The notes beneath the pieces were generated by a model that worked only from the letters and a program-made list of their open reading frames with translations, made no database searches and was not told where the DNA came from. From an uncultured Clostridia bacterium (GTDB taxonomy: Bacteria; Bacillota; Clostridia; TANB77; CAG-465): DNA of 64,000 nt. Both the position numbers and the translations under genes were made by a program. The stretch is from assembly GCA_949106495.1 (NCBI GenBank), contig CARYZD010000005.1, forward strand, positions 32,945 to 96,944, in the 5' to 3' direction. Positions 1 through 20,480 of this stretch are shown piece after piece (position 1 is the stretch's first letter; each line of letters starts with the position of its first letter).

Positions 1-93
1 ATTTTGTCATAATATATAATATAAATAAAATATATTACCCCTATATACAGAAAAATAGTCAAACATTAAATTTGGCTATTTTCTAATTAAAAA

Positions 94-1368
94 CTATTTA
101 TTTTTCTTAGGTCTACCTACACGTCTTTTCTCTTTAGGCTTTTCTTCTTTTTTAGGTCTACCTACTCTTCTTTTAGGTTTTTCTTCTTCAATTGCCTCTT
201 CTTTGTCTTCATCATCTTCTACTTCATTTTCAATTATATCATCTGTATTTTCTTTTTTGTCTTCGTCATCTATATTTTTACCTAATATTTCATCAAGATT
301 TAATTTGTCTATATCTATGTCCTCATCATCTTCTTGTTCTTCTTTAGGATTTAATATAGCTTCTATTTTCTCTTTAACAGTATCCATTGCTGTCATTTCT
401 TTTGCTTTTTCAAATAAGAACTTATCTACTTCATTTTCATCTTCACTTGCAAGTAATTTAGAATATTCTAAATATTCATCTTCAGTAGCTATTGTTCTGT
501 GAACATCATTAACTTTTGTTTTAATCATCATATCATATATTTCTTTAAACATTTTGATATAATCATTTTCATTAACAATTTCTTTTTCAAAACTCTCATC
601 ATATATTTTTAAAACTTTAGTAAAAATCTTATCTATTACTTTAAAATATCTATATGAATTTTTACAAATATTAATAATTAAATTATATTCGTACATATGC
701 TTGTCTATATCCGATTCAATTCCTTTTATCATTGACTCTATAACATATTCTATTAATTCTCTCTCATCAGATGGTAATTTAGATATATCATAATTATCAT
801 TTATATATCCAACATACTCATCTATTCCTTTAAATAAATCTTTATATAGCTCTTCTTTATATTGGTCTGTTTGAATTGCAGTATCAATATCTTCTGCAAT
901 CTTTATAACTTGATTGTATCTTTGAGCTTTTCCTTCGTCTTTTATATTTTGTTTTACTTCATCTATTGCAGAAGAAATAGATAATAAATTAAATTTTATT
1001 TCTTCTTTAGATTTAAATTTAGATTTTGTAACTCTATCGTATTCCATTTCTAAAAATGTTTTTTGAAGTTCTAGTCTTGTGGTTTTATCTGACGAATTAA
1101 TATTGTCTATAATATCATCTGGATAAGACATTTTTAATTCATACATACTTCTTTGCATAATATCATATTGATATTTTACAAAAACAATTTCTCTTAATAT
1201 ATTTTCTTGATAAGTTTTCTTTTCATCACCCTCAGTCTTTCTAATTACAGATAGGTGTTCATCTATTGCCTTATTCATTTTATTCATGTTAAGCATAATT
1301 ACTACGCTTTGTATTACTCTGTCAAAAAAGTTAATTTTCTTTTTTGAACTTACAACTATATCTGCCAT
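94..1368 (-). CDS. hypothetical protein; acidic C-terminal tail followed by two AT-hook-like motifs (RRVGRPKK x2)
   Basis: 424-aa ORF. The C-terminus reads ...EDDEDKEEAIEEEKPKRRVGRPKKEEKPKEKRRVGRPKKNK. No recognisable enzymatic motifs. Confidence 0.45.
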   Translation of the reverse strand: MADIVVSSKKKINFFDRVIQSVVIMLNMNKMNKAIDEHLSVIRKTEGDEKKTYQENILREIVFVKYQYDIMQRSMYELKMSYPDDIIDNINSSDKTTRLELQKTFLEMEYDRVTKSKFKSKEEIKFNLLSISSAIDEVKQNIKDEGKAQRYNQVIKIAEDIDTAIQTDQYKEELYKDLFKGIDEYVGYINDNYDISKLPSDERELIEYVIESMIKGIESDIDKHMYEYNLIINICKNSYRYFKVIDKIFTKVLKIYDESFEKEIVNENDYIKMFKEIYDMMIKTKVNDVHRTIATEDEYLEYSKLLASEDENEVDKFLFEKAKEMTAMDTVKEKIEAILNPKEEQEDDEDIDIDKLNLDEILGKNIDDEDKKENTDDIIENEVEDDEDKEEAIEEEKPKRRVGRPKKEEKPKEKRRVGRPKKNK

Positions 1369-1577
1369 ATAACAACTCTCCCTCTTTTGTTTAGTAATAT
1401 ATTATCTATAAAATTTATTTAACCTTTTACAATCTACTTATATTATATCTTTTTTTTAAATAATTTCAACCCTTTGAGAGTAAAACTTGTAATTTTTGTA
1501 ACATTTTTATTACGTCAGAAACATGGAACTGTAATAATGTAATATTTATTGCCAAATACTGCCAAATTGAACTATTT

Positions 1578-4500
1578 TTAGACTTCTAGGCTCTTTCTAC
1601 AAACACTTGAATATTTACAAAATTCGCAATAATTTTCCTTCTTATTTGGTGCTATTTTAACATTTCCACTAGATAGTTCCTTACCTATATCTTTTAATAC
1701 AGTTTTGGTATTCTCACATAATTTTTCAAATTCATTTTCTTCTAATACTTTACTTGAATTACGTGTAATACTTACTTTACTTACATCAATAAGACACTCA
1801 TTAGAATTTGTTTCAAAGTTTCTATCCATTTTATTTAATATTTCTAAATCTTTTAAAAATATTCCATTCATTTTTAGTTTTTTCATTAACTCTTTTTTTA
1901 TCTTATCATTATTTTGCTCGTACTGTGAAAGTGAAACTAATTTATCCGATAAATTAAAATATACCATTCCAGCAGGAATAATTTTCTCTTGATTTTTATT
2001 TTCCATAAGAGCAATCATATAACTAATTAGTTGCAATGATAATCCTTCTTTTATTTTATCTATTTTTAACTCTTTACTACTAGATTTATAATCAACTACT
2101 CTAATATACATACTGTCTCTTAAATTTAGCATATCTACTCTATCTATTTTACCTATTATTTTCATTACTTTTCCATTGTCAAGCTCTATTTCCATAGGTA
2201 AAAATACACCATTTTCTTTAAATTCAATTTCATATCCATATGGTTCAAATTCACTTTGGTTAAAACCTAACGCAACTACTCTAATTACTTTTTTCATTGT
2301 ATTGGTTAATTTTCTTTTTAAAACCATATACTTTACACTTTGTTTTTGCTTAGACAAATTTTTATCTATAGAATCATAGATAATATCATCTAGTATTTTC
2401 TCGTATTGTGGTTTTAAATTTTCTAAATCTTCTTCTAAAATTTCTCTCCAAGATATATTTTTGTCAAGCAGTGTTTTTGAAAAAGCTTCTAATACTCCAT
2501 GCATAAAACTTCCAAGTTCTAATACATTTAATTTTGCCTCTTTATTTGGACATACTTTTAAAATATATTGCATAAAGTATGAAAAAGGGCATTTTTTATA
2601 CTGTTCAAGCTTACTAACACTTGTTTTAAAACTATCACTATATATAATACTTAAAACTTCACTGTTTAAATTTGAATCATCTTTTTTAAATTCTAATATA
2701 TTTGAATATCTTTCATCATTTTTAAAATACACATAAGCACTATATATTTTAGATATATCATCATTTTCTTTTATATCTCTAATAGATTTAATTAGCCACA
2801 TAAACAATTCATCTTTAGATGTCATCTCATATATATTAGTTATACTATTATCATTTGTAACATCACCTTTTATATATATTTTTGCAATTTGACTAATAAG
2901 TGTTATTAAACTAGATTTTCTTGTTGCTTTACCATCTAAATTTGCAGCAGGTATATATATATATAACTTTTCAGTAATATTATTTAAAGCTTCATATATA
3001 TTAAAATATCCCATGTTTAGCTTACTAATTGTTGTTTCTTTTATATCTATTTGCTTATCTTTTAATTTCTCTAATTCATTATCTGTAAATAATATATCTT
3101 CATCTACTTTTTCTGGAAATTTTCCTTCAACAACCCCAATAAAGAAAGCAATTTTTTTAGATTCAGTTTTTGTAACATTAATATCTACAAGCTCTATTTT
3201 GTCTTTAGTTGGTGGTATTGTTTTTATTTTTATATCTTTTACAACTAGATTAAAAATATTACTAAATTCTTCTATATTAAGCTCTTCATCTTTATATATT
3301 TTTACTATTGAGTCAAATACATCAATAAGTGATTTCCAAACTTGACCTTCAAAATTATTTATATCTAAACTAAATGTATCTTGCTTTAATGGTTCAATTA
3401 ATTTTAAATAATTTTCAAATATATTATTTTCCTTTAAATGTACATATATTTTTTCTATTATATCTTTTGCTGTACCTGATTTAATATCTAATACAAAAGA
3501 ATACATTGATACAATTTTATCTTTTATATTATTTAAGTTTTCTATATCATAAGTATTTTTTTCGTTATTAAGTTCAAATTTCTTATCTACTAAGTATTTA
3601 TTTACATTAAATTCATTCATATAGTTTTCAAGTAAATATATATCTTTTAAATCTATATCTGTTATTCCTTGTTTTAAAATATTAAAAATAAGTTCTAGAT
3701 TTAATCCTTTAACAGATAAGTTTAATAATCCTTGTATATATTTAGTTAAAATCGAATCTGCTATACTCTTACTTTTTGAAACATATATTTCTAAATTATT
3801 TGCGTAAAAAATTCTAGATATTACTTTTTCATATTCATCTGGTTTTGTAGTATATATTGCAAAATCTGAATACTTATATCCTTCTTTTATTTTTTGAGCT
3901 ATGTTTTTGGCAACAGCTTCTATTTCTTTTAAAATATTTGTATGTATCATTATTTCAAAATTTTGAGTTTCTATTTTTTCATTTTTGTCATTAGTATTTG
4001 AAAATAAGTTATTTGCTACATATTTTAAATCTTCTTTTGCATTAGATTTATTCTCATATTTTACAATATTTTCTAGTGAGATATTGTTTTTATCTGCTAG
4101 AGTACAAATTCTTTTATATGTTTTATTTGGAGTTTCAAAAATACTTGAAGAAATATATATATCTTCAATTCTTGAAATATCTGTATTTAAAGATAGTGTA
4201 ATATCTATTCTTTTTTTCATTAACATATCTATAAACTTATATTCACTATTTGAAAAGTTATTATATCCATCAAAATATATAGATAAATTTTTATTATCCC
4301 TAAACCATTCACTTTTTTCTATATTAGCTAAGAACATATCCATCTCTTCAACACTATCTATATATACAGTTGTAATTTTTTCTAAATATTTTTCATAAAC
4401 AGATAATATCTCACTAAATTTAGAATCTGTTCTTTTATCTCCTGTTTTTAGATTAAAATAATCTGCTATATCTATTTCACTTTTTCTAAGTAAATCCATA

Positions 4501-4868
4501 TATATATCTAATATATCTAAAAAGCCTGGGTACTTTTTTACTTTCTTAAAAATATTAAATAATTCTGAATTTTCTTTTATTACTTGAGTAAGTATTATTT
4601 TTCTATCAAGTTTAGACATATATTTATCTTCTATATGTAAATTTTGAAGCTTTAATTCCGTAGAAATAAATTCTGAAATGGTGGTAATGTTTACCCCTAT
4701 TACTCCAGATTTATTTAGTATTTTCATGTATTCTTCTTCTGCTTTAGCTCTTGATTGTGATGGAACAAACAATATTACTTTTTTATCTTCTTTTAAATCT
4801 TGTTCAATCATTTGATATATATGAGTTGTTTTTCCTGTTTTAGATTTTCCTAAAATACAATTAATCAT
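1578..4868 (-). CDS. addB: ATP-dependent helicase/nuclease subunit B (AddB/RexB)
   Basis: 1096 aa. N-terminal Walker A GKSKTGKT followed by ILFVPSQ, the AddB pattern. C-terminal nuclease motif GKIDRVD. A four-Cys Fe-S cluster (C...CEFCKYSSVC) as in Bacillus AddB. Confidence 0.85.
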   Translation of the reverse strand: MINCILGKSKTGKTTHIYQMIEQDLKEDKKVILFVPSQSRAKAEEEYMKILNKSGVIGVNITTISEFISTELKLQNLHIEDKYMSKLDRKIILTQVIKENSELFNIFKKVKKYPGFLDILDIYMDLLRKSEIDIADYFNLKTGDKRTDSKFSEILSVYEKYLEKITTVYIDSVEEMDMFLANIEKSEWFRDNKNLSIYFDGYNNFSNSEYKFIDMLMKKRIDITLSLNTDISRIEDIYISSSIFETPNKTYKRICTLADKNNISLENIVKYENKSNAKEDLKYVANNLFSNTNDKNEKIETQNFEIMIHTNILKEIEAVAKNIAQKIKEGYKYSDFAIYTTKPDEYEKVISRIFYANNLEIYVSKSKSIADSILTKYIQGLLNLSVKGLNLELIFNILKQGITDIDLKDIYLLENYMNEFNVNKYLVDKKFELNNEKNTYDIENLNNIKDKIVSMYSFVLDIKSGTAKDIIEKIYVHLKENNIFENYLKLIEPLKQDTFSLDINNFEGQVWKSLIDVFDSIVKIYKDEELNIEEFSNIFNLVVKDIKIKTIPPTKDKIELVDINVTKTESKKIAFFIGVVEGKFPEKVDEDILFTDNELEKLKDKQIDIKETTISKLNMGYFNIYEALNNITEKLYIYIPAANLDGKATRKSSLITLISQIAKIYIKGDVTNDNSITNIYEMTSKDELFMWLIKSIRDIKENDDISKIYSAYVYFKNDERYSNILEFKKDDSNLNSEVLSIIYSDSFKTSVSKLEQYKKCPFSYFMQYILKVCPNKEAKLNVLELGSFMHGVLEAFSKTLLDKNISWREILEEDLENLKPQYEKILDDIIYDSIDKNLSKQKQSVKYMVLKRKLTNTMKKVIRVVALGFNQSEFEPYGYEIEFKENGVFLPMEIELDNGKVMKIIGKIDRVDMLNLRDSMYIRVVDYKSSSKELKIDKIKEGLSLQLISYMIALMENKNQEKIIPAGMVYFNLSDKLVSLSQYEQNNDKIKKELMKKLKMNGIFLKDLEILNKMDRNFETNSNECLIDVSKVSITRNSSKVLEENEFEKLCENTKTVLKDIGKELSSGNVKIAPNKKENYCEFCKYSSVCRKSLEV

Positions 4869-4869
4869 A

Positions 4870-5445
4870 TTACTCCTCTATTTTTTCTTCATCTTTTGTT
4901 GTATCTTCGTAATCTGATACTAGCATTTGTTCATCTTTTATTTTTATATTTTCGTAATTTGGAAGTTCTTCTACACTATTTATACCACATGAACGTAAAA
5001 ACTCATTTGACACACTGTATGCAGCTGGTCTTCCAGGTAAATTAAGTCTTGCAACTTCTTCAATAAGTCCACATTCTAAAAGTCTACTTACTGCAAAGTC
5101 ACTATTTACTCCTCTAATGTTTTCTATTTCAGTTTTGGTAATTTTAGGATTATATGCAATTATTGCTAAAGTTTCTTGTGCTGATATAGATAAGTTTTGT
5201 CTTTTGGCATTTTCCACAAATTTATTTACTTGCTCATAATATTTATTATTTGTAACAAGTTGTATCATTCCGTTAATATCTATTAACTTTACACCATTAT
5301 TTTCTGTATATCTATTCTTTAAATTATCCACACTTTTAATAATCTCTTCTTCATTTATTTCTAATGTTTTTGCTAACTCTTCTGTAGTTATTTCTCTACC
5401 AAGTGCAAATAGTATTGCTTCCATTACATTTTCTAAATTTTCCAT
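4870..5445 (-). CDS. scpB: segregation and condensation protein B (ScpB-like)
   Basis: 191 aa. Tandem winged-helix pattern similar to B. subtilis ScpB (ILFALGREITTEELAKTL ... LAIIAYNPKITKTEIENIRGVNSDFAVSRLLECGLIEEV). RBS AGGAGAG upstream. Its stop lies 1 nt from the addB start codon. Confidence 0.75.
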   Translation of the reverse strand: MENLENVMEAILFALGREITTEELAKTLEINEEEIIKSVDNLKNRYTENNGVKLIDINGMIQLVTNNKYYEQVNKFVENAKRQNLSISAQETLAIIAYNPKITKTEIENIRGVNSDFAVSRLLECGLIEEVARLNLPGRPAAYSVSNEFLRSCGINSVEELPNYENIKIKDEQMLVSDYEDTTKDEEKIEE

Positions 5446-5570
5446 ATTCTCTCTCCTATCTTTTTTATTAGATTATATCAAAAAGAATATTATTTTTAAA
5501 GGGTTTTATTAAGAAATAATTATTACACATATTGTACTTATTTTTGTTATAATATATAATTAAATTAACA

Positions 5571-6083
5571 TTGGAGGTATATATGAAAAATAAAAAAATC
5601 ATAATAATATGTTTAAGTATACTTGTTATTATAGCTACAATTTTTCTTACTTTTGTACTTATAGAAGATTATCTTCCTAAAAAGCAAGTAAAATTACCAG
5701 AAAATGAAAGTGTTCAAATATCAACTCTAAAAGAAATTTATGAAGATTTTATATCTCAATTTGAAAATCTAAAAAATTCAACTATTACTTTTGAAGATAA
5801 TGCTTTTTTAAATTTAGTAACAAGGCAAAAATTTAGTGAAAAAAGTATAGAAGAATTAAATTCTGTTGTAAAAGATTATAATGGTGATGACTCTATCTGT
5901 ACTGTATCAGTTAAATATTCAAATGGAATACTTGAACTAACAGTAAATGAATATATTGGAGTATATTCATATAACAATTATACAGGAACAACTACATATA
6001 CATTAGAATTTAAAAATAATAAGATAAATTATACTAGAGGAAAAACAATGTCGACTTTTAATGATTTTGCACCTCAAGAATAA
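5571..6083 (+). CDS. hypothetical membrane-anchored protein (N-terminal TM helix)
   Basis: 170-aa ORF with RBS GGAGG. A hydrophobic N-terminal segment is followed by a soluble domain. The true start may be the Met at 5583. Confidence 0.4.
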   Translation: MEVYMKNKKIIIICLSILVIIATIFLTFVLIEDYLPKKQVKLPENESVQISTLKEIYEDFISQFENLKNSTITFEDNAFLNLVTRQKFSEKSIEELNSVVKDYNGDDSICTVSVKYSNGILELTVNEYIGVYSYNNYTGTTTYTLEFKNNKINYTRGKTMSTFNDFAPQE

Positions 6084-6103
6084 ATATAAGTTAATTTAGT
6101 TAA

Positions 6104-6150
6104 AAAAATGAGATTTAAGTTTTATTTTTACTTAAATCTCATTTTAATTT
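6104..6150. terminator. intrinsic terminator hairpin, bidirectional
   Basis: Perfect inverted repeat aaatgagatttaagt / acttaaatctcattt, flanked by an A-run on one side and a T-run on the other. It lies after the stop of the 5571..6083 gene. Confidence 0.6.
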
Positions 6151-6473
6151 CTATTATTTGTTAGACAATATTATTTTAATTTTTTGATTTCTTTTATTTC
6201 TAAATTTAATAATGACGATAAAAACTCTCTTAAAAATTTTTCATTTCCTTTATGGGCAAATATTCTTTTAAATACTATATCTATTTTTACTGATAATTTA
6301 TTTTCTTCTATCACTTGATATCCTTTCCAAGGATATAACAAATTTGTGTATATTTCAATATTGAATTATTCTTTTTTACTTTTTAGATTAAATTTATTTT
6401 TAGATTTAATATTCATGAACAATAAAATTATATAACTCAAAGTTTAATATGTAAATACTTTATTACCTTATCA

Positions 6474-6770
6474 TTATTTTCTTTTTGTATTAACAAATGT
6501 ATTGTATATTATTACTCCAATCAATACTAAATAAAGTATTAAAATTATTATTGCCTCTATATTTAAAGAAATAATTTTTCCAACAAAAAACGCTATTTCA
6601 CTAGTTGTTAGATAATTTCTATTTAATGCAAATATAAAAGACCATATTGGTAGTATCAAAGACAAAATACTTTGTAATAATCCAAATATCTTATTTTTCT
6701 TTGTAATAGTCACAATAATTCCAAATATAAAGCTAACTATTAACACTATCCAATAAATTCCCCATAACAT
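6474..6770 (-). CDS. small hypothetical membrane protein (about 3 TM helices)
   Basis: 98-aa hydrophobic ORF. RBS-like GGAGGTAG upstream. Confidence 0.35.
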   Translation of the reverse strand: MLWGIYWIVLIVSFIFGIIVTITKKNKIFGLLQSILSLILPIWSFIFALNRNYLTTSEIAFFVGKIISLNIEAIIILILYLVLIGVIIYNTFVNTKRK

Positions 6771-6921
6771 ATACTCTACCTCCTACAATCTTATAACAAA
6801 TTTATATCTATAATAAAACATAATTATAAGGAAATTAACAATACTTAATTTCCATTTAATATTTAAAATAAAAAACATCTGTTATTTTAGTTTTTTTACA
6901 GTTAAAAACACTTTTTCTTCC

Positions 6922-6950
6922 TTGTCTTTAATATACTTTTATGTTATAAT
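6922..6950 (+). promoter_or_regulatory. putative sigma-A promoter upstream of clpE (TTGTCT-17 nt-TATAAT)
   Basis: -35-like TTGTCT at 6922-6927 and -10 TATAAT at 6945-6950 with a 17-nt spacer, about 40 nt upstream of the clpE RBS. Confidence 0.35.
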
Positions 6951-6988
6951 CTTTATATTATTTTAATAATAAAATAATAGTATAGGAG

Positions 6989-9334
6989 ATGATAAAAAAT
7001 ATGCTATGTTCTGTATGCAAAAAAAATCTTGCTGTAGTATTTATTAACAAACTAGATAAAGAAGGTAAATCTACAGGCGAAACTACAGGATTATGTATTG
7101 AATGTGCTAAAAAACAAGGTATAGATCCTCTTGCTAATATTATGAAAGAAATGTCTAATATGAATGAGGAAGATTTAGAAAGCATGTCTAGTCAATTTGA
7201 TAGTATGCTTGGTTCTTTAGATGGAATAAATGAGCTTTCAGGTTTAGATGATGATGATGAAAATAAATCTAATAGCTTAGGAAATATATTTGGTAATATC
7301 TTACCTTTTGCTAAAAATAATAGTAAAAAAGAAGAAACAAACAATACAAAAAATGATAAAACTAAAAAGAATAAAAAAACAAAATATTTAGATACATTTG
7401 GTGAAAACCTAACAGAAAAAGCAAGACAAGACAAATTAGATAAAGTTATTGGTAGAGACATAGAACTACAAAGAATGATACAAATTTTAAATCGTCGTTC
7501 TAAAAACAACCCTGCTCTAATTGGTGAACCTGGTGTTGGTAAAACAGCAGTTATTAATGCTTTAGCTATGAAAATTGTTGCAGGTGAAGTTCCAGGCAAA
7601 TTAATAAACAAAGAAGTTTATTTAATAGATATGACCTCTCTTGTTGCTGGTACTCAATTTAGAGGACAATTTGAATCAAGAGTTAAAGGTTTAATTGATG
7701 AATGTAAATCTTTAGGAAATGTAATTCTTGCAATAGACGAAGTTCATAACATTGTTGGTGGTCTTGAGCATGATAACTCAATGAACGCTGCAAATATGCT
7801 AAAGCCAGCTCTAGCTAATGGTTCTGTACAATTAATTGGTGCCACTACTCTAAAAGAATATAGACAATATATTGAAAAAGATAGTGCATTAGAAAGAAGA
7901 TTTCAACCAGTTATGGTAGATGAGCCAAATGAAGAAGACTGCTTTAAAATATTAAAAGGTATTAAAGGATATTATGAGAATTTCCATAAAGTAACAATAC
8001 CTGATGATACAATTAGATATGCTGTTAATTTATCTTGCAAATATATACATGATAGATTTCTACCAGATAAAGCAATTGACCTTTTAGACGAGGCTTGTGC
8101 TAGAGTTAACCTTGAAGATTTAAATCTTGCTAAAATTGAAAAACTTCAAAAAGAACTTGATGAAGCTATTGCTCAAGAACAAGAAATTCAAGAAGAGCTT
8201 GCTAAAGCTGCAGATGTTCAAGAAAATCCTGGTAACTCAGATAACTCTGTTTACGAGAGAGCTGCAAAAAATAAAGAAATTAAATGTAAGTTAAAAACTA
8301 CACTTGATGAACTTATTGCAAATTCTAAACCACAAGAAGTTACTTATGATAATATAGCTCAAGTTGTTGAACTATGGACTAAAATTCCAGTAATGAGAAT
8401 AAAAACCTCAGATACTGAAAAACTACTTTCATTAAAAGAAAATTTATCTAAAAAAATTATTGGTCAAGATTACGCAATAAACAAATTGTCTAGTGCAATA
8501 CTTAGAAAAAGAGCTAATATTACTTCAACTAAAAGACCTCCATCATTTATATTTGTTGGACCTACTGGTGTTGGTAAAACAGCTCTTGTAAAATCACTTG
8601 CATATGAACTTTTTGATAATGAAGATGCAGTTATTAAGCTGGATATGTCTGAATATATGGAATCTAATTCTACTTCAAAATTAATTGGCTCTCCTCCAGG
8701 ATATGTTGGTTATGATGAAGCAGGACAATTAACTGAAAAAATCCGTAGAAATCCTTATAGTATTGTATTATTTGATGAAATTGAAAAAGCACATCCTAGT
8801 GTATATAATATACTACTTCAAATATTAGATGAAGGTATACTTACAGATTCACAAGGAAGAAGTGTTTCTTTCAAACACACTATAATAGTACTTACTTCTA
8901 ATCTTGGAACAAACTTTAAATCTGATGGATATGGTTTTGCTAATATTCATATGGAAAATGAAATGCTTGAGAATAAAACAGCTGAAGCTTTAAAAGAATT
9001 CTTTAGCCCTGAATTTTTAAATAGAATTGATGATATCGTTACATTTAATAAATTAGACGATAAAACAATTCTTAAAATTTCAGAACTTATGATTAAAGAA
9101 TTACAAGAGGATACAAAAACTAAAAATATACTATTTGAATACACACCAGAAGTTGTTAAATTTATTGCTGATAGAGGTCATAGTGATAAATTTGGTGCAA
9201 GACCTTTAAGACGTGCTATTCAAACATATATTGAAGACATACTTGCAATTGGATTTATTAAAAATGAAATTAAAGAAGATAAAGTTTATACTTTAGATGT
9301 AGATAAAAAGAATAATACAATTGTTATTAAATAA
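6989..9334 (+). CDS. clpE: ATP-dependent Clp protease ATP-binding subunit ClpE (N-terminal zinc ribbon, two AAA+ modules)
   Basis: N-terminal CxxC...CxxC (MLCSVCKK...GLCIECAKKQG), the ClpE hallmark. D1 has GEPGVGKT/IDEVH; D2 has GPTGVGKT, LFDEIEKAH and GARPLRR. The start may be the Met at 7001. Confidence 0.85.
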   Translation: MIKNMLCSVCKKNLAVVFINKLDKEGKSTGETTGLCIECAKKQGIDPLANIMKEMSNMNEEDLESMSSQFDSMLGSLDGINELSGLDDDDENKSNSLGNIFGNILPFAKNNSKKEETNNTKNDKTKKNKKTKYLDTFGENLTEKARQDKLDKVIGRDIELQRMIQILNRRSKNNPALIGEPGVGKTAVINALAMKIVAGEVPGKLINKEVYLIDMTSLVAGTQFRGQFESRVKGLIDECKSLGNVILAIDEVHNIVGGLEHDNSMNAANMLKPALANGSVQLIGATTLKEYRQYIEKDSALERRFQPVMVDEPNEEDCFKILKGIKGYYENFHKVTIPDDTIRYAVNLSCKYIHDRFLPDKAIDLLDEACARVNLEDLNLAKIEKLQKELDEAIAQEQEIQEELAKAADVQENPGNSDNSVYERAAKNKEIKCKLKTTLDELIANSKPQEVTYDNIAQVVELWTKIPVMRIKTSDTEKLLSLKENLSKKIIGQDYAINKLSSAILRKRANITSTKRPPSFIFVGPTGVGKTALVKSLAYELFDNEDAVIKLDMSEYMESNSTSKLIGSPPGYVGYDEAGQLTEKIRRNPYSIVLFDEIEKAHPSVYNILLQILDEGILTDSQGRSVSFKHTIIVLTSNLGTNFKSDGYGFANIHMENEMLENKTAEALKEFFSPEFLNRIDDIVTFNKLDDKTILKISELMIKELQEDTKTKNILFEYTPEVVKFIADRGHSDKFGARPLRRAIQTYIEDILAIGFIKNEIKEDKVYTLDVDKKNNTIVIK

Positions 9335-10565: not shown

Positions 10566-11165
10566 TTAGCTTTCTAAATCTTCTATAAAACTATTTAGTT
10601 CTTCTCTTGAATTAATATATGTCCCTTTTTTTACCATTTTCTTCAATTCGTCTCTTAAGTTATCTATATTAACATCATCTAATGTCATATATAATGTATT
10701 TTTATTCTCACCTTGTATAGAATAAATATTTATTTTATTATCCTCAAGAATTATCTTAAAATGATTAGGACAATTTCCGCTTAAAGTTCTAGAATATACT
10801 ATTTTATTTTCACTTTCGCTTTTTATATTATATTCAAGTCCTTTCTTCTCTTGGTATTTTTTCTCATCTGCTTTTACTTTATCTATAGTAGTACCATATT
10901 CAACTTTACTTTTAGTTACATCTTCCTTACAAACAGTATAATTATCCTCATATACTACAGTTATATCGTAAGTTTTAGTTGACGCAGTAACTACCAAATC
11001 ACTATTTCTTGCTACACTATAATTTTTAGCAAAATCTAAAACACTAGTATTATCTATTTCTAATTTATCAAAAGATACTGTTTTTACATATCCAAAACCA
11101 ATACCCAAAAAAAGTAATAATACTAAAGCTAAACAATATAATATTTTATTTTTAAAATTCATCAT
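10566..11165 (-). CDS. hypothetical secreted/lipoprotein-like protein
   Basis: 199 aa with an N-terminal signal-like hydrophobic segment. Probably co-transcribed with 9377..10510. Confidence 0.4.
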   Translation of the reverse strand: MMNFKNKILYCLALVLLLFLGIGFGYVKTVSFDKLEIDNTSVLDFAKNYSVARNSDLVVTASTKTYDITVVYEDNYTVCKEDVTKSKVEYGTTIDKVKADEKKYQEKKGLEYNIKSESENKIVYSRTLSGNCPNHFKIILEDNKINIYSIQGENKNTLYMTLDDVNIDNLRDELKKMVKKGTYINSREELNSFIEDLES

Positions 11166-13444: not shown

Positions 13445-14521
13445 ATGATAACAACTAGTTTATGTATGATTGTAAAAAATGAGGAAAAAGTATTAGAAAG
13501 ATGCTTAAATTCAGCAAAAGATATTGTTGATGAAATAATTATAGTAGATACTGGTTCAACTGACAAAACTAAAGAAATAGCAAATAAATTTACAAGTAAA
13601 GTTTATGATTTTAAATGGATTGACGATTTTGCAGCTGCAAGAAATTATTCATTTTCAAAAGCTACTAAAGACTTTATTTTATGGTTAGATGCAGATGATG
13701 TAATTTTAGATGAAGACAAACAAAAATTTATAGATTTAAAGAATTCATTAAATTCATCTATAGATATTGTAATGATGAAATACAATGTTGGATTTGATGA
13801 AAATGGTAATGTAAATTTTTCATATTATAGAGAAAGACTAATAAAAAGAGAAAAAAACTATAAATGGGAAAGTCCAATACACGAAGTTATTGTTCCAAGT
13901 GGTAACTTATACTATTCAAATATTTGTATAACACATAAAAAAGAAGAAACTAAATACTCAAAAAGAAATCTTGAAATATTTGAAAAACTACTATCTAAAA
14001 ATATTGAGCTTGATGCAAGACAACTATATTATTATTCAAGAGAATTAATGTATAATTCTCAATATGAAAAAGCAATATCATATTTTAATATATTCTTAAA
14101 TAATAAGAACGCATGGATAGAAAACAAAATAAATGCATGTATAGATTTAAGTAATTGTTATAAAGAAATTGGAAATAATGAAATGGCCATCTCTTCCCTA
14201 TTTCGTTCTTTTGAATATGATACTCCTAGAGCTGAAATATGTACAAATATAGGAATATATTTTATGGAGAAAGAAAACTATGAACTTGCAATCTATTGGT
14301 TTAAACAAGCAACTAGAATAAAACCAAATTTACAAAGTGGTGCTTTTGTACAAATAGATTATTACAAATATATTCCATATCTTAATATTTGTGTTTGTTA
14401 TAATAGACTTGGAAAAGATAAAATTGCATGTAAATATAATGAAAAAGCTGGAAAATTTAAGCCAAACAGCATTGCATATAAAAATAATAAAGAATACTTT
14501 AAAAAAATAAAAATTTGTTAA
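13445..14521 (+). CDS. family 2 glycosyltransferase with C-terminal TPR repeats (spore-surface protein glycosylation type)
   Basis: N-terminal GT-A pattern (CMIVKNEE...IIIVDTGSTDKT...DADD). The C-terminal half looks like TPR-like repeats. Sits immediately upstream of a collagen-like protein gene. Confidence 0.75.
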   Translation: MITTSLCMIVKNEEKVLERCLNSAKDIVDEIIIVDTGSTDKTKEIANKFTSKVYDFKWIDDFAAARNYSFSKATKDFILWLDADDVILDEDKQKFIDLKNSLNSSIDIVMMKYNVGFDENGNVNFSYYRERLIKREKNYKWESPIHEVIVPSGNLYYSNICITHKKEETKYSKRNLEIFEKLLSKNIELDARQLYYYSRELMYNSQYEKAISYFNIFLNNKNAWIENKINACIDLSNCYKEIGNNEMAISSLFRSFEYDTPRAEICTNIGIYFMEKENYELAIYWFKQATRIKPNLQSGAFVQIDYYKYIPYLNICVCYNRLGKDKIACKYNEKAGKFKPNSIAYKNNKEYFKKIKIC

Positions 14522-15934
<1,413 letters not shown>

Positions 15935-16944: not shown

Positions 16945-18120
16945 ATGGCTATAAGAGAAAGATTAAGTGGTAATGAAGCTGTTGCTACAGCTATGAAACA
17001 AATAAATCCAGATACTGTTGCTGCCTACCCTATTACACCTTCTACAGAGGTTCCACAGTATTTTTCAAACTTTGTTGCAAATGGAGAAGTTACAACAGAA
17101 TTTATTGCTGTTGAAAGTGAACATAGTGCAATGAGTGCTTGTATTGGTGCTTCTTCTGCTGGTGGTAGAGTTATGAGTGCAACATCATCTCAAGGTCTTG
17201 CATATATGTTTGAAATGTTATATATTGCAGCTGGAATGAGACTTCCAATTACACTAATATGTGCAAATAGAGCTCTATCTGCTCCATTAAACATTCACAA
17301 TGACCATTCTGATTCTATGGGAGTTAGAGATGCAGGATTTATTCAATTATATTGTGAAAATAACCAAGAAGCATATGATAATGCTATTATGGCAGTAAAA
17401 ATTGCAGAAAAGGCAAATCTTCCAGTCATGGTTTGCTATGATGGATTTATTACATCTCACTCTGTTGAAAATATAATGTTAATTGAAACAGAAGATGTTA
17501 AAAAATTTGTTGGAGAAAGAAAACCAACTCAATATTTGTTAGATGAAGAAAGAAATATTTCAATGGGACCTATGGATTTACAAAAATATTATTTTGAACA
17601 TAGAAAACAACTTGCAGAAGCTATGAGAGGAGCTAAAGATATTATAAAAGAAGTATCCGAAGAATTTTATAAACTTACTGGAAGAAAATATGATTTATAT
17701 GAAAATTATGGAATGCAAGATGCAGAAATTGGTATAGTAGCATTAAGTTCTACAGCTGGTACTGCTAAAGATGCAGTAGACACATTAAGAAAAGCTGGTG
17801 TTAAAGCAGGTCTAATAAAACCTAGAGCATTTAGACCTCTACCTTTTGAAGAACTTCCAAAAGAATTAAAAAATTTAAAAGCATTAGCTATAATGGATAA
17901 ATGTGATAGTGTTAATGGATATGCTGCTCCACTATTTACAGAACTTACATCTGCAATGTATAGTCAAGGACTTACTGTTCCAACTGTAAACTATATATAT
18001 GGACTTGGTGGTGTAGATGTTAAAGTTGACGATATTCTTTCTGTATATAAAAAATTAAATGAAATATCTAAAAATGGTAATGTTGAAAATACAACTTACT
18101 ATTTAGGATTTGAAGATTAG
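16945..18120 (+). CDS. porA: 2-oxoacid:ferredoxin oxidoreductase alpha subunit
   Basis: 391 aa, collinear with POR/VOR alpha subunits. RBS AGGAGG. Confidence 0.8.
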   Translation: MAIRERLSGNEAVATAMKQINPDTVAAYPITPSTEVPQYFSNFVANGEVTTEFIAVESEHSAMSACIGASSAGGRVMSATSSQGLAYMFEMLYIAAGMRLPITLICANRALSAPLNIHNDHSDSMGVRDAGFIQLYCENNQEAYDNAIMAVKIAEKANLPVMVCYDGFITSHSVENIMLIETEDVKKFVGERKPTQYLLDEERNISMGPMDLQKYYFEHRKQLAEAMRGAKDIIKEVSEEFYKLTGRKYDLYENYGMQDAEIGIVALSSTAGTAKDAVDTLRKAGVKAGLIKPRAFRPLPFEELPKELKNLKALAIMDKCDSVNGYAAPLFTELTSAMYSQGLTVPTVNYIYGLGGVDVKVDDILSVYKKLNEISKNGNVENTTYYLGFED

Positions 18121-18132
18121 GAGGTATTACAA

Positions 18133-19086
18133 ATGGCATATAATTTAAAAGACGCTGTAGAAAAAGAATCTAGATTTACATCTGGACATAGAATGTGTGC
18201 TGGATGTGGTGCTCCTCCAGCAGTAAGAAATATATTAAGAGCATTAAAACCAGAAGATAATGCTGTTGTATCATGTGCAACAGGATGTTTAGAAGTATCA
18301 AGTTGTATTTACCCATATACTTCATGGAAACATGTATCATTTATACATACTGCTTTTGAATGTGCATCTGCTACACTTTCTGGTGCTGAAAAAACATATA
18401 ATGCTCTAAAAAGAGCAGGAAAAATAACTAATACTACTAAGTTTATTGCATTTGGTGGTGATGGTGGTACACTAGATATAGGTCTTCAATCTTTATCTGG
18501 TGCAATGGAAAGAGGACACGATATTACTTATGTATGTTATGATAATGGGGCATATATGAATACAGGAACTCAACGTTCTTCTTCTACTCCACACTTTGCA
18601 GATACTACAACTTCTCCTGCTGGAAAAGTTGTACCTGGTAAAATGCAACCAAGAAAAGATTTAACAGAAATAATGGTAAAACATAATCTTCCATATGTTG
18701 CACAAACAGCTTTGTTTGGTAACTTAAGTGATATATATACTAAATCTGAAAAAGCAATATATACAGAAGGTCCAACTTTCATTGCTGCTTTTGCTCCTTG
18801 TCCTAGAGGATGGGGATATCCTTCAGAAGATTTAGCAGAAATTGAAAAACTTGCTGTTATGACTTGCTTCTGGCCTTTATATGAAGTTGAAAATGGTGTT
18901 TATAAAGTTAACTTTAAGCCAGCTAAAAAACTTCCTGTAATTGAATTTATTAAAACTCAAAAAAGGTTTAAACATATGTTAAAACCTGGTAATGAATGGA
19001 TGATAGATGAATTACAAGCAGAAATAGATAGAAAATGGGAATATATTTTAATGATGGAAGAAATAACAAATAAAAAAGAAGATTAA
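18133..19086 (+). CDS. porB: 2-oxoacid:ferredoxin oxidoreductase beta subunit (TPP-binding)
   Basis: A Cys cluster (CAGCG...C...C) and a GDG-type TPP motif (FGGDGGTLDIG). RBS GGAGG. Confidence 0.8.
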   Translation: MAYNLKDAVEKESRFTSGHRMCAGCGAPPAVRNILRALKPEDNAVVSCATGCLEVSSCIYPYTSWKHVSFIHTAFECASATLSGAEKTYNALKRAGKITNTTKFIAFGGDGGTLDIGLQSLSGAMERGHDITYVCYDNGAYMNTGTQRSSSTPHFADTTTSPAGKVVPGKMQPRKDLTEIMVKHNLPYVAQTALFGNLSDIYTKSEKAIYTEGPTFIAAFAPCPRGWGYPSEDLAEIEKLAVMTCFWPLYEVENGVYKVNFKPAKKLPVIEFIKTQKRFKHMLKPGNEWMIDELQAEIDRKWEYILMMEEITNKKED

Positions 19087-19095
19087 AAGTATTAT

Positions 19096-19123
19096 GAGAG
19101 GACTTATAGGTCCTCTCTTTTAT
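19096..19123. terminator. bidirectional intrinsic terminator between convergent porB and aroF
   Basis: Hairpin gagaggac-ttatag-gtcctctc with T-runs on both strands. It overlaps the aroF stop. Confidence 0.6.
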
Positions 19124-20136
19124 ATTATTCTATCTACAGACTCAGCAATAGGTCTTAATCTATTAACTATATCATCATACATATCTGGTGTAATTGATTG
19201 CTTTCCATCACACAATGCTTTCTCAGGATTATTATGCACCTCAATAATAAGTCCATCTGCTCCAATTGCAACTGCAGCTTTGGATAAAGGTTCAACCATC
19301 CATCTTAAACCTGCTGCATGACTTGGGTCAACGATAATAGGTAAATGACTCAATTTTTTAATCATTGGAATTGCTGATATATCTAATGTATTTCTTGTGG
19401 TTGTTTCATATGTTCTTATCCCTCTTTCGCAAAGAATAACATTTGAATTTCCTTCAGACATAATATATTCTGCAGACATTAACCATTCTTCTATTGTTGC
19501 TGCAATTCCTCTTTTTAAAAGAATTGGCTTATTTAACTTTCCGGCTTTTTTTAATAAATCAAAATTTTGCATATTTCTTGCACCAATTTGTATAACATCT
19601 ACATCTTTTTCAAAGACTTCTAAATCATCTATAGACATGAGTTCTGTTACAATCTTAAGTCCTGTTGCCTCTCTTGCTTTTTTTAGCATTTCTAATCCTT
19701 CATATTTTAATCCTTGAAAAGCATATGGAGAGGTTCTAGGTTTGAATGCTCCACCTCTTAAAAATTTAGCACCACTTGCTTTTACTTTTTTTGCAATTTC
19801 AATTACTTGTTCCTCACTTTCTACAGAACAAGGACCAGCAATCATCATTAATTTTCCATTACCAATTATTACTTCATCACCTATTTTTATAACTGTATCT
19901 TCTGGATGAAATTTTCTACTAGCTCTTTTATATGCTTCTTTAACAACACATACATCTATAACTCCGTCTAAATTTTTAATTTTTTCTATATCAATAACTT
20001 TTGTATTTCCAATAGCACCTAGTATTATTTCCTCTTTTGAGGTATTTTCTACAACAGTTAATCCTAACTCTTCTATTTTTTCTTTAATTTCTAAAATAAC
20101 TTTTTCATCTACATCTTTTTTTAATTTAATAATCAT
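19120..20136 (-). CDS. aroF: 3-deoxy-7-phosphoheptulonate (DAHP) synthase, type I-beta with N-terminal ferredoxin-like regulatory domain
   Basis: 338 aa. Core motifs GPCSVES, KPRTSPY and LxDPSH-like (IVDPSHAAG), characteristic of KDO8PS-like DAHP synthases. About 90-aa N-terminal extension. RBS AGGAGG. Confidence 0.85.
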   Translation of the reverse strand: MIIKLKKDVDEKVILEIKEKIEELGLTVVENTSKEEIILGAIGNTKVIDIEKIKNLDGVIDVCVVKEAYKRASRKFHPEDTVIKIGDEVIIGNGKLMMIAGPCSVESEEQVIEIAKKVKASGAKFLRGGAFKPRTSPYAFQGLKYEGLEMLKKAREATGLKIVTELMSIDDLEVFEKDVDVIQIGARNMQNFDLLKKAGKLNKPILLKRGIAATIEEWLMSAEYIMSEGNSNVILCERGIRTYETTTRNTLDISAIPMIKKLSHLPIIVDPSHAAGLRWMVEPLSKAAVAIGADGLIIEVHNNPEKALCDGKQSITPDMYDDIVNRLRPIAESVDRII

Positions 20137-20150
20137 AATAAATTCCTCCT

Positions 20151-20470
20151 ATCAAAAAGAGAGCCTCATAATCAAATGAGACTCTCCATACTATTCATAT
20201 TTTAAGTTTATTTATTGAATATTTTTATATTAGTATTCCGCGGCTAACTAATATCATTTTAATACTCAAATATCATTTTATTGTTACTCATTTGATTAGA
20301 TTGTATGTTTTTTAGGTACGCAAAAAATCTTACGCTAAAATAATAGCCTAAGAATCCAAAGTAAAAATAAAAGTTGTTAACTAATATTTCATTTGCTACC
20401 ATAAAAAACTCTCTCCTTTCTTTCTGAGTAATTTATTCTATATTAACATTACATCAAAAAATTGTCAATA
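20151..20470 (-). promoter_or_regulatory. aroF 5' leader: promoter (TTGACA-17-TAATAT) plus a terminator hairpin immediately upstream of the RBS (candidate attenuator / riboswitch-type leader)
   Basis: On the minus strand, -35 TTGACA (20463-20468) and -10 TAATAT (20440-20445). About 290-nt leader. Hairpin gagagtctcatttgat-tatgaggctctc plus UUUUUGAU ends 1 nt before the AGGAGG RBS. An AUUAGUUAGCCGCGG segment partly resembles a T-box, but no full consensus is present. Confidence 0.4.
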
Positions 20471-20480
20471 CTAATTTTTA

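What the first reader, a model, noticed from the sequence alone, without database searches (positions are those of the whole stretch)
1578..5445. scpB translationally coupled to addB, with neither scpA nor addA adjacent
A ScpB-like gene (4870..5445) ends 1 nt before the addB start codon, and the addB RBS GAGGAG lies inside the scpB 3' end. In Firmicutes scpB almost always follows scpA, and addB is almost always followed by addA. Here the neighbours are an unrelated membrane protein gene upstream of scpB and a 424-aa AT-hook protein gene downstream of addB. Either both partner genes are relocated, or this is a noncanonical chromosome-maintenance operon pairing a kleisin-associated subunit with a recombination nuclease.
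Basis: partly seen in the sequence, partly recalled or inferred. Interest (0 to 1): 0.55.

Follow-up and report, generated by a model that had tools for sequence, protein, structure and literature searches.

The report
Conserved scpB-addB operon, addA elsewhere
In a group of uncultured, very AT-rich gut Clostridia, the chromosome-condensation gene scpB and the DNA-repair nuclease gene addB form a tight two-gene operon, while addB's usual partner addA lies at another conserved site in relatives; this looks like an ordinary gene-order variant, not a new system.

Summary
scpB (4870-5445, minus strand) passes the ScpB HMMs. Its TAA stop lies 1 nt before the ATG of an intact addB (1578-4868), and GAGGAG forms the last two scpB codons. 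Neither addA nor scpA is in the 64-kb window. In assemblies of the same species, the 10 kb downstream of addB carries the 424-aa gene, spoIIE and dnaE.

The scpB-addB pair was found in every related locus examined, down to 39% AddB identity. These are eight MAG species representatives plus metagenome contigs from several studies. A promoter in front of scpB is conserved.

In relatives where both genes could be traced, an intact addA sits elsewhere, always after tsaE and before pgeF. It lies about 8.5 kb upstream of scpB-addB in two loci and on another contig in a third MAG. A large group of addA genes with no nearby addB mirrors the AddB tree and is probably this group's addA. I did not find addA in this window's own genome, and scpA was not located anywhere.

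Tight spacing is common here (14 of 38 same-strand pairs have gaps of 20 nt or less), and addA is itself coupled to the unrelated pgeF. The best reading is a compact housekeeping operon with relocated partners. Interest is low to moderate.

The parts
5472..5500 (-). Promoter-like site of the scpB-addB unit: -35-like TTTAAA (5500-5495), 17-nt spacer, extended -10 TGaTATAAT (TG at 5480-5479, TATAAT at 5477-5472)
   Evidence: Consensus scan. The scan alone is not above chance in AT-rich DNA (67 sites found against 66 expected). However, CTTTAAAAA...TTTGATATAAT is the only conserved block in an otherwise divergent intergenic region across 7 species (alignment A2).
5453..5457 (-). scpB ribosome-binding site AGGAG, 7 nt before the ATG
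   Evidence: Sequence. ATAGGAGAG is conserved in 6 of 7 species.
4870..5445 (-). scpB: SMC-ScpAB complex subunit B, 191 aa
   Evidence: PF04079 E 8.7e-47; TIGR00281 119 bits against a cutoff of 89.2. Aligns to Geobacillus ScpB 3W6J_B over residues 6-163, E 2e-26.
4873..4878 (-). GAGGAG: the last two codons (Glu-Glu) of scpB, serving as the Shine-Dalgarno sequence for addB, 4 nt before its ATG
   Evidence: Sequence. (G)AGGAG/GAGGAA-stop-1 or 2 nt-ATG is kept in 6 members of the window's group and in L136.
1578..4868 (-). addB: helicase-nuclease AddAB subunit B, 1096 aa, apparently intact
   Evidence: ADDB_N plus PDDEXK_1 domains. TIGR02773 matches end to end at E 1e-167, but its 560 bits are below the 904-bit equivalog cutoff. 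Aligns to 3U44_B at E 1.5e-88. Walker A GK(S/T), Cys760/1081/1084/1090, D909-R-x-D912 and D926-Y-K928 are invariant or nearly so in 117 clade homologues.
1442..1469 (-). Separate promoter-like site for the 424-aa gene: TTGAAA, 16 nt, TATAAT
   Evidence: 11 of 12 match to consensus. GGTTGAAATTAT...AGATATAATATAAGTAG is nearly invariant in 7 species, and a conserved TTAC-repeat element lies upstream (alignment A3).
94..1368 (-). Clade-restricted 424-aa helical protein with an acidic linker and two C-terminal AT-hook-like GRP motifs. It is always downstream of addB and upstream of spoIIE. Function unknown.
   Evidence: No Pfam, NCBIfam or PDB hit. Only 40 hits, mostly fragments, among 1.84 billion representatives. 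The N-terminal ~320 aa are near-invariant in 10 species. The single-sequence AF2 model is poor, with pLDDT 43.
5571..6083 (+). Divergently transcribed small protein with a hydrophobic N-terminus (170 aa from TTG; called as 166 aa in other assemblies). This is the 'upstream neighbour' of scpB.
   Evidence: ORF list. Only a weak sub-threshold Wzz hit. Present in same-species contigs but poorly conserved in relatives.
23318..26863 (-). smc, 1181 aa: the SMC partner of ScpB, 18 kb away in the same window
   Evidence: SMC_N E 1.9e-51 and SMC_hinge E 4e-30.

Best explanation
scpB and addB form a conserved two-gene housekeeping operon in a deep clade of uncultured gut Clostridia with about 24-28% GC. 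Transcription starts at a conserved sigma-A-type promoter with an extended -10 just upstream of scpB. In the window's group, addB is translated by ribosomes terminating at the scpB stop codon 1 nt upstream, helped by the GAGGAG inside the scpB 3' end. The two proteins then do their ordinary, separate jobs. ScpB joins SMC (encoded 18 kb away) and a ScpA kleisin encoded elsewhere. AddB joins an AddA encoded elsewhere to form a canonical AddAB end-processing helicase-nuclease. The pairing results from genome rearrangement and compaction. An ancestor of the clade had addA-pgeF-comEC-p199 | clpC | scpB-addB. In the window's group, addA-pgeF is no longer upstream of comEC and probably sits at the tsaE | addA-pgeF-pgsA-ligA-mfd locus.

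Shown: the gene identities, the junction, conservation of the synteny and the promoter, the integrity of the AddB motifs, and unlinked intact addA in relatives.

Inferred: co-transcription, translational coupling, the presence of addA and scpA in this particular genome, and the absence of a functional ScpB-AddB link.
For: Identities and junction.

Synteny: scpB-addB was found in all 8 species-level MAG loci, with AddB 39-77% identical. It was also found in every further locus looked up (L011, L013, L015, L136, L137, L142-147, L156-160). Independent assemblies from several studies rule out a misassembly.

Junction spacing: 1-3 nt in the window's group and in L136, and 10-71 nt with its own RBS in deeper branches.

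Promoter: a conserved promoter footprint lies upstream of scpB, and a separate one lies upstream of the 424-aa gene.

AddB under purifying selection: the Walker A motif, the four Fe-S cysteines and the nuclease motifs are essentially invariant in 117 homologues.

addA in relatives: L136 (MAG CANQUF01) and L137 have a bona fide addA, followed by pgeF, comEC, p199 and an opposed clpC, about 8.5 kb upstream of scpB-addB on the same contig. In MAG GCA_030524345.1, AddB is MDO4283109.1 and AddA is MDO4283123.1, on different contigs. A group of 90 AddA clusters sits at tsaE | addA-pgeF-pgsA-ligA-mfd with no addB within 10 kb. These keep the Walker A and nuclease motifs.

Tree congruence: the identity ranking of that AddA group to three anchored lineages mirrors the ranking of the window's AddB group. 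The AddB values are 49-52, then 43-44, then 41-42%. The AddA values are 51-52, then 47-49, then 46-47%.

Tight coupling is generic here: 14 of 38 same-strand pairs have gaps of 20 nt or less, including unrelated genes. addA overlaps or abuts pgeF: the gap is 1-3 nt in L137 and L138, and the genes overlap by 8-11 nt in L139 and L148.

Precedent for unlinked addA and addB in a Clostridium: C. tetani (PMC1193525).
Against: No addA was tied directly to the window's own genome or to any MAG of its closest group. No scpA was found anywhere, so its existence rests on the established requirement of ScpB for the kleisin. Co-transcription and coupling are not measured. The adjacency has persisted over a divergence as deep as 39% AddB identity, which could reflect selection for co-expression rather than mere inertia. 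AddB evolves faster than its neighbours and faster than the presumed AddA (median 65% against 75% within the group), and this is not explained.
Confidence: 0.78

Rival explanations
1. The operon is a functional chromosome-maintenance module. ScpB, or the whole SMC-ScpAB complex, and AddB would be co-expressed because they cooperate, for example by loading or holding condensin at double-strand breaks that AddAB is processing. The conserved 424-aa AT-hook protein might be a third, DNA-binding component.
For: The adjacency was found in every clade member examined, across AddB identities of 39-86%. The junction is tightly coupled in the window's group. The 424-aa gene follows addB in 13 of the 14 loci that extend far enough past it, though with an LRR-protein gene (L007) or a 919-aa gene (L011) in between in two of them; L013 has a AAA_14/DUF4143 gene after addB and then ends. 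smc and dinB are in the same window. From my own knowledge, B. subtilis smc and scpAB mutants are reported to be sensitive to DNA damage.
Against: There is no evidence of interaction. The 424-aa gene has its own strongly conserved promoter. The spacing relaxes to 31-71 nt in deeper branches. Unrelated genes are packed equally tightly elsewhere in the window, and addA is coupled to pgeF. In canonical addB-addA loci sampled from other AT-rich organisms, no scpB precedes addB. A search of 8 million full texts found no paper discussing an scpB-addB link.
Confidence: 0.08
2. addA has been lost in the window's lineage. AddB would then be an orphan that either works with another SF1 helicase, such as a PcrA-, UvrD- or RecD2-like enzyme, or is decaying.
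For: No addA or pgeF remnant was found in the window, in 10 kb on either side of addB in the same species, or in any of the 8 closest MAG loci. AddB evolves faster than its neighbours. Its TIGR02773 score is below the equivalog cutoff. One relative (L007) has addB split into two ORFs.
Against: All functional motifs of AddB are invariant and its length is constant at 1087-1153 aa in 117 homologues. Every relative in which both genes could be traced keeps an intact addA. A large group of addA genes with no nearby addB, from the same human-gut studies, mirrors the AddB phylogeny. By established biochemistry of B. subtilis AddAB, AddB has no motor activity of its own.
Confidence: 0.06
3. The juxtaposition is an assembly or binning artefact, that is, a chimeric contig joining two loci.
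For: The sequence comes from metagenome-derived assemblies. Contigs of this species do break nearby, at the collagen-repeat gene.
Against: The identical junction occurs in 14 contigs carrying the identical AddB, from ENA and Logan assemblies of different samples. It also occurs in all related species from independent studies.
Confidence: 0.01

Closest known systems
Bacillus subtilis addB-addA operon (AddAB helicase-nuclease; structures 3U44, 3U4Q, 4CEH)
   Same: AddB here aligns end to end with B. subtilis AddB at E 1.5e-88. It keeps the N-terminal Walker A site, the RecB-type nuclease motif and the four-cysteine Fe-S cluster signature. Relatives encode an AddA with UvrD-helicase, UvrD_C and PDDEXK_1 domains.
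   Different: addB is not followed by addA. It follows scpB instead, and the next genes downstream are the 424-aa orphan gene and spoIIE. In relatives, addA lies upstream or at another locus, coupled to pgeF. The AddB score is below the NCBIfam equivalog cutoff (560 against 904 bits), so it is a divergent member.
Bacillus subtilis scpA-scpB (ypuG-ypuH) operon of the SMC-ScpAB condensin
   Same: ScpB passes both HMMs and aligns over both winged-helix domains of solved ScpB structures. smc is present in the window.
   Different: No scpA precedes scpB. scpB has its own conserved promoter and is the first gene of the unit. scpA was not found in the window or in any of the loci held.
Clostridium tetani, the one Firmicute with unlinked addA and addB in the survey by Rocha et al. 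2005 (PMC1193525)
   Same: It is a low-GC Clostridium in which addA and addB co-occur but do not colocalise. Several AT-rich Clostridium-like metagenome contigs likewise show addA without an upstream addB, some next to dnaE.
   Different: The paper does not describe what flanks addB in C. tetani. Whether scpB precedes it there was not tested here.
Helicobacter pylori addA (HP1553) and addB (HP0275), unlinked genes encoding a functional AddAB
   Same: It shows that AddAB can work when its subunits are encoded at separate loci.
   Different: It is an epsilonproteobacterial AddAB type, a distant lineage, with no scpB association known to me.

Membership tests
ScpB (SMC-ScpAB subunit B; PF04079 / TIGR00281) | Scores above the curated family thresholds | tested here: met
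   PF04079 scores 159.1 bits against a cutoff of 27.4. The TIGR00281 equivalog scores 119 bits against 89.2.
ScpB (SMC-ScpAB subunit B; PF04079 / TIGR00281) | Tandem winged-helix architecture matching solved ScpB structures | tested here: met
   Residues 6-163 align to 3W6J_B residues 12-171 at E 2e-26, and also to 4I98_B at E 1.9e-23. This rests on sequence alignment only; no structure was modelled.
ScpB (SMC-ScpAB subunit B; PF04079 / TIGR00281) | SMC partner encoded in the genome | tested here: met
   smc at 23318-26863, with SMC_N and SMC_hinge domains.
ScpB (SMC-ScpAB subunit B; PF04079 / TIGR00281) | ScpA kleisin partner encoded in the genome, usually immediately upstream | tested here: inconclusive
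   It is not upstream of scpB, not in the 64-kb window, and not in any locus fetched. The rest of the genome could not be searched.
AddB of Firmicutes-type AddAB (TIGR02773; PF21445 + PF12705) | Full-length match to the AddB family model | tested here: inconclusive
   Pfam ADDB_N (133 bits) and PDDEXK_1 (140 bits) pass their cutoffs. TIGR02773 matches positions 3-1127 of 1159 at E 1e-167, but its 559.8 bits are below the 903.7-bit equivalog cutoff. The protein aligns end to end with 3U44_B.
AddB of Firmicutes-type AddAB (TIGR02773; PF21445 + PF12705) | N-terminal nucleotide-binding (Walker A) site | tested here: met
   G7-K-S-K-T-G-K13-T14. G7, G12 and K13 are conserved in 115-117 of 117 homologues.
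AddB of Firmicutes-type AddAB (TIGR02773; PF21445 + PF12705) | C-terminal RecB-family nuclease motif and four-cysteine Fe-S cluster | tested here: met
   D909, R910, D912, D926, Y927, K928 and C760, C1081, C1084, C1090 are invariant in 117 of 117 homologues.
AddB of Firmicutes-type AddAB (TIGR02773; PF21445 + PF12705) | AddA partner encoded in the same genome | tested here: inconclusive
   Shown for three related lineages, on the same contig or in the same MAG. Inferred for the window's group from a congruent group of addA genes with no nearby addB. Not shown for this genome.
Canonical addB-addA operon | addA immediately downstream of addB on the same strand | tested here: not met
   The genes downstream are the 424-aa ORF, spoIIE, a 98-aa ORF and dnaE in the same species and in all relatives.
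Canonical scpA-scpB operon | scpA immediately upstream of scpB on the same strand | tested here: not met
   Upstream of scpB is a 125-nt intergenic region with a conserved promoter, then a divergent small gene.

The most novel reading that the evidence does not exclude
The scpB-addB pairing, kept in every member of this Clostridia clade examined, and the clade-specific, highly conserved 424-aa AT-hook protein encoded just downstream, reflect a real functional link between condensin and double-strand-break end processing. For example, ScpB or the AT-hook protein might recruit or regulate AddAB on the nucleoid, possibly during sporulation, given the adjacent spoIIE.
Probability: 0.07. Interest if true: 0.6.

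Novelty: new member of a known kind. Interest (0 to 1): 0.27.

Why it matters
If the ordinary reading is right, the finding matters mainly for annotation. In a large group of uncultured gut Clostridia, addA and addB are unlinked, and scpB is not next to scpA. Pipelines and readers that rely on the canonical addBA and scpAB operons may therefore wrongly call these systems incomplete. The case also shows that very tight, apparently translationally coupled junctions in compact AT-rich genomes need not signal a shared function. If the pairing were functional, it would give a testable genetic handle on how SMC complexes relate to break repair in bacteria. Nothing found here points that way.

Tried and rejected
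1. I looked for addA and scpA inside the window with Pfam scans of most ORFs of 120 aa or more, by ORF size and with a ScpA N-terminal motif search in six frames. Nothing was found.

2. I looked for addA just beyond the window in same-species contigs. Only spoIIE and dnaE lie there.

3. tblastn of relatives' AddA and PgeF against the window and all clade loci, to detect remnants or pseudogenes, found none.

4. I tried to tie an AddA directly to the window's species or its nearest MAGs in three ways: by matching contig lengths, by GenBank accession proximity (this worked only for MAG GCA_030524345.1), and by sample co-occurrence (the overlap was only at study level).

5. I tried to assign a function to the 424-aa protein. 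It has no Pfam, NCBIfam or PDB profile hit. The single-sequence AlphaFold model has pLDDT 43, too poor for a fold search. An exhaustive phmmer search found only clade-internal hits.

6. I considered the 424-aa protein as a divergent kleisin or AddA substitute and rejected this. It has no ScpA or UvrD signal, its C-terminus is predicted disordered rather than a winged helix, and it has its own promoter.

7. The simple terminator scan found none in 1-7000. Whether transcription reads through from addB into the 424-aa gene is therefore undetermined.

8. A literature search for scpB together with addB gave no relevant paper.

9. I did not attempt dN/dS, because synonymous sites are saturated at the available divergences.


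Full report
**What is in the sequence**

The window has about 24% GC. On the minus strand, a 191-aa ORF (5445..4870) is a clear ScpB. It matches PF04079 at E 8.7e-47 and scores 119 bits against the TIGR00281 equivalog, above the 89.2-bit cutoff. It aligns to solved ScpB 3W6J_B over residues 6-163.

Its last two codons are GAG GAG. These are followed by TAA (4872-4870), one T (4869) and the ATG (4868-4866) of a 1096-aa ORF ending at 1578.

That ORF is an AddB. It has ADDB_N and PDDEXK_1 domains and matches TIGR02773 end to end at E 1e-167, although its 560 bits are below the 904-bit equivalog cutoff. It aligns to B. subtilis AddB 3U44_B over residues 5-1091 at E 1.5e-88.

Downstream lies a 424-aa ORF (1368..94) with two RRVGRPKK AT-hook-like motifs and no family hit. 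The gene on the other side of scpB (5571-6083) is divergently transcribed.

**Are the partner genes nearby?**

Pfam scans of the window's ORFs found smc (23318-26863), dinB, RNase R, two FtsH-like genes, comEC and a ClpC-like ATPase, among others. They found no UvrD-type helicase-nuclease and no ScpA. A six-frame motif search for the ScpA N-terminus was also empty.

Contigs of the same species that encode the identical AddB continue beyond the window start. They carry the 424-aa gene, spoIIE, a 98-aa ORF, dnaE, and Band_7 and NfeD genes, but no addA.

**Is the arrangement real and conserved?**

The identical junction is present in 14 contigs from different ENA and Logan assemblies.

A scan of one genome per GTDB species returned eight MAGs. 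All are uncultured gut Clostridia or Clostridiaceae, from Hadza and Brazilian human samples, rabbit and other hosts. Their AddB proteins are 39-77% identical to the window's. All eight have the order comEC, p199, (p377), opposed clpC-like gene, scpB, addB. In all eight the 424-aa gene follows addB (after an inserted LRR-protein gene in L007). spoIIE follows in the seven loci that extend that far.

Further homologues down to 42% identity also have scpB directly before addB (L011, L013, L015, L156-160).

The scpB-addB gap is 1-3 nt in the window's group and in L136. It is 10-71 nt, with a separate RBS, in deeper branches.

The region upstream of scpB is poorly conserved except for CTTTAAAAA, a spacer of about 14 nt, and TTTGATATAAT, plus the RBS. 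This is a phylogenetic footprint of an extended -10 promoter. The addB-to-424 spacer contains a second, nearly invariant TTGAAA-16-TATAAT promoter.

The simplest transcription map is therefore a bicistronic scpB-addB unit followed by a separately promoted 424-aa gene. No terminator-like hairpin was detected, so read-through is possible.

**Is AddB functional?**

In 117 full-length clade homologues, the following are invariant or nearly so: the Walker A glycine and lysine, Cys760, Cys1081, Cys1084 and Cys1090, D909-R-x-D912 and D926-Y-K928. Length stays between 1087 and 1153 aa. AddB is thus under purifying selection at all sites known to matter in B. subtilis AddB. Overall, however, it diverges faster than ScpB, the ClpC-like protein and the 424-aa protein.

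**Where is addA?**

I scanned the metagenome collection for the AddA/RecB motif III (GDxKQSIYxFR), written in AT-biased codons.

One hit was L110, a human-gut contig. It carries a ClpC-like gene 70% identical to the window's, along with comEC and p199. It also carries a genuine 1221-aa AddA with UvrD-helicase, UvrD_C and PDDEXK_1 domains.

Using that AddA as a query gave two anchors on single contigs. These are L136 (MAG GCA_947626975.1) and L137. Both read tsaE (opposed), then addA, pgeF, comEC, p199, an opposed clpC-like gene, then scpB and addB. addA therefore lies about 8.5 kb upstream of scpB-addB on the same strand.

A third anchor came from GenBank accession numbers. AddB P0039 is MDO4283109.1 and is 53% identical to the window's AddB. 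AddA P0135 is MDO4283123.1. Both belong to MAG GCA_030524345.1 but lie on different contigs. There addA again follows tsaE and precedes pgeF.

The largest AddA group recovered has 90 clusters of about 1226 aa. It sits at tsaE | addA-pgeF-pgsA-ligA-mfd with no addB within 10 kb, in human-gut assemblies from the ONAT22-1 and BRZ studies. Members of the window's AddB group occur in those same studies.

The identity ranking of that AddA group to the three anchored lineages is 51-52, then 47-49, then 46-47%. The window's AddB group ranks against the same three lineages in the same order: 49-52, then 43-44, then 41-42%. All these AddA proteins keep the Walker A and nuclease motifs.

No addA or pgeF remnant lies in the window or in its close relatives' loci. 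Relocation of addA is therefore shown for the clade and inferred for this genome.

scpA was not located anywhere. Its presence elsewhere is inferred from the established dependence of ScpB on the kleisin and from the intact smc and scpB genes.

**Does the coupling mean shared function?**

The evidence argues against reading function into the junction.

- In this window, 14 of 38 same-strand neighbouring pairs are 20 nt or less apart and 4 are 5 nt or less apart. These include unrelated pairs such as the RNase R gene, a membrane-protein gene and a Methyltransf_4-family methyltransferase gene, probably trmB.
- addA in the relatives is coupled just as tightly to the unrelated pgeF. The two genes are 1-3 nt apart or overlap by 8-11 nt.
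- The scpB-addB spacing relaxes in deeper branches.
- In canonical addB-addA loci from other AT-rich organisms, scpB is not upstream of addB.

Unlinked addA and addB already have a precedent in a Clostridium. Rocha et al. 2005 found colocalisation in 20 of 21 Firmicutes, the exception being C. tetani (PMC1193525).

In my AT-biased metagenome sample, 9 of 16 full-length addA genes with enough upstream sequence lacked an addB-sized ORF in front. Several of these were next to dnaE instead.

No paper linking scpB and addB was found.

**Verdict**

The finding is real, reproducible and conserved. It is best explained as a compact housekeeping operon created by rearrangement in a clade of uncultured low-GC gut Clostridia, with AddAB and SMC-ScpAB each working canonically from dispersed genes (confidence about 0.78).

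Three less likely readings remain:

- a genuine functional link between condensin and end processing, perhaps involving the clade-specific 424-aa AT-hook protein (about 0.08);
- loss of addA in this lineage, leaving an orphan AddB (about 0.06);
- an assembly artefact, which is effectively excluded.

This is a new gene-order instance of known systems, not a new kind of system. Interest is low to moderate (0.27).

**The 424-aa protein**

This protein is the most unexplained object at the locus. It is confined to this clade: it has only 40 hits, mostly fragments, among 1.84 billion representatives. Its N-terminal ~320 aa are almost invariant across species whose AddB proteins are only 39-77% identical to the window's. 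It has no detectable relatives of known structure or function.

Noticed in passing
window 94-1368 (-), promoter 1442-1469: The 424-aa protein is restricted to this clade: only 40 hits, mostly fragments, among 1.84 billion representatives. Its N-terminal ~320 aa are almost invariant in 10 species, followed by an acidic linker and two GRP AT-hook motifs. It has its own nearly invariant promoter, preceded by a conserved TTAC-repeat element. It lies between addB and spoIIE, directly after addB in 11 of 14 loci. Function unknown.
   Followed up: partly
L136:10001-14611, L137:10001-14468, L138:10001-14617, L139/L148:10001-14528: In relatives, addA sits at a conserved locus after an opposed tsaE-tsaB-rimI cluster. 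It is tightly coupled to pgeF (Cu-oxidase_4/YfiH family), 1-3 nt apart or overlapping by 8-11 nt. In the largest group pgsA, ligA and mfd follow.
   Followed up: yes
L042, L078, L017, L119, L095 (metagenome loci): Clostridium-like AddA genes (motif NNIFMVGDVKQSIYKFRQA, about 1220 aa) have no addB-sized ORF upstream and are directly followed by dnaE. In L078 the spoIIAB-sigF genes lie further upstream. Overall, 9 of 16 AT-rich loci with a full-length addA lacked an upstream addB.
   Followed up: partly
33 loci, e.g. L093, L047, L106, L084, L090, L065: A separate family of shorter (about 1000-1050 aa) AddA-like proteins carries the signature [25 protein letters not shown]. They occur on contigs of 19-31% GC (mostly below 26%) from human-gut, other Ga-numbered (JGI) and further metagenome records. 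Their organism and partner genes were not examined.
   Followed up: no
L009:17475-19037: A 520-aa bacterial protein with a ubiquitin-family domain (PF00240 E 4.6e-11; Rad60-SLD E 9.6e-8) is encoded just downstream of spoIIE in MAG JBJEXW01.
   Followed up: no
window 14528-15934 (+), with 13445-14521 (+): A collagen-triple-helix repeat protein (468 aa) follows a GT2/TPR glycosyltransferase gene, and the 14-16 kb stretch that holds it has locally raised GC (about 36%). Other assemblies of the same species break at this gene.
   Followed up: no
window 33427-35136 (-) and 35988-38006 (-): There are two FtsH-like paralogues (AAA + Peptidase_M41) about 850 bp apart, with a PAP2 phosphatase gene between them. 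The shorter one matches only the first ~80 positions of the M41 model.
   Followed up: no
L007:5376-8671; L143:14915-17056 and 18026-21456: addB is split into 737-aa and 329-aa ORFs in MAG CAJLBR01, and an LRR-protein gene is inserted before the 424-aa gene. In one sample of the window's species, spoIIE and dnaE are fragmented. These are either frameshift or assembly errors, or pseudogenes.
   Followed up: no
AddB and AddA protein sets (P0001-P0120; P0121-P0294): Within the window's group, AddB is less conserved (median pairwise identity 65%) than the presumed AddA (75%). It is also less conserved than ScpB, the ClpC-like protein and the 424-aa protein. Rocha et al. 2005 reported the opposite trend for Firmicutes, with AddB slightly more conserved than AddA.
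   Followed up: partly
L013:13565-14767, L110:6161-7441, L136:20522-21763: Probably mobile genes sit at the rearrangement points. A AAA_14/DUF4143 ATPase gene lies right after addB in L013 and between pgeF and comEC in L110. An IS110 transposase gene lies between clpC and scpB in L136.
   Followed up: no
window 10566-11165 (-): The conserved 199-aa protein downstream of comEC has a weak, sub-threshold BofC C-terminal domain hit (E 6.7e-4). Together with spoIIE, this fits a sporulating lineage.
   Followed up: no
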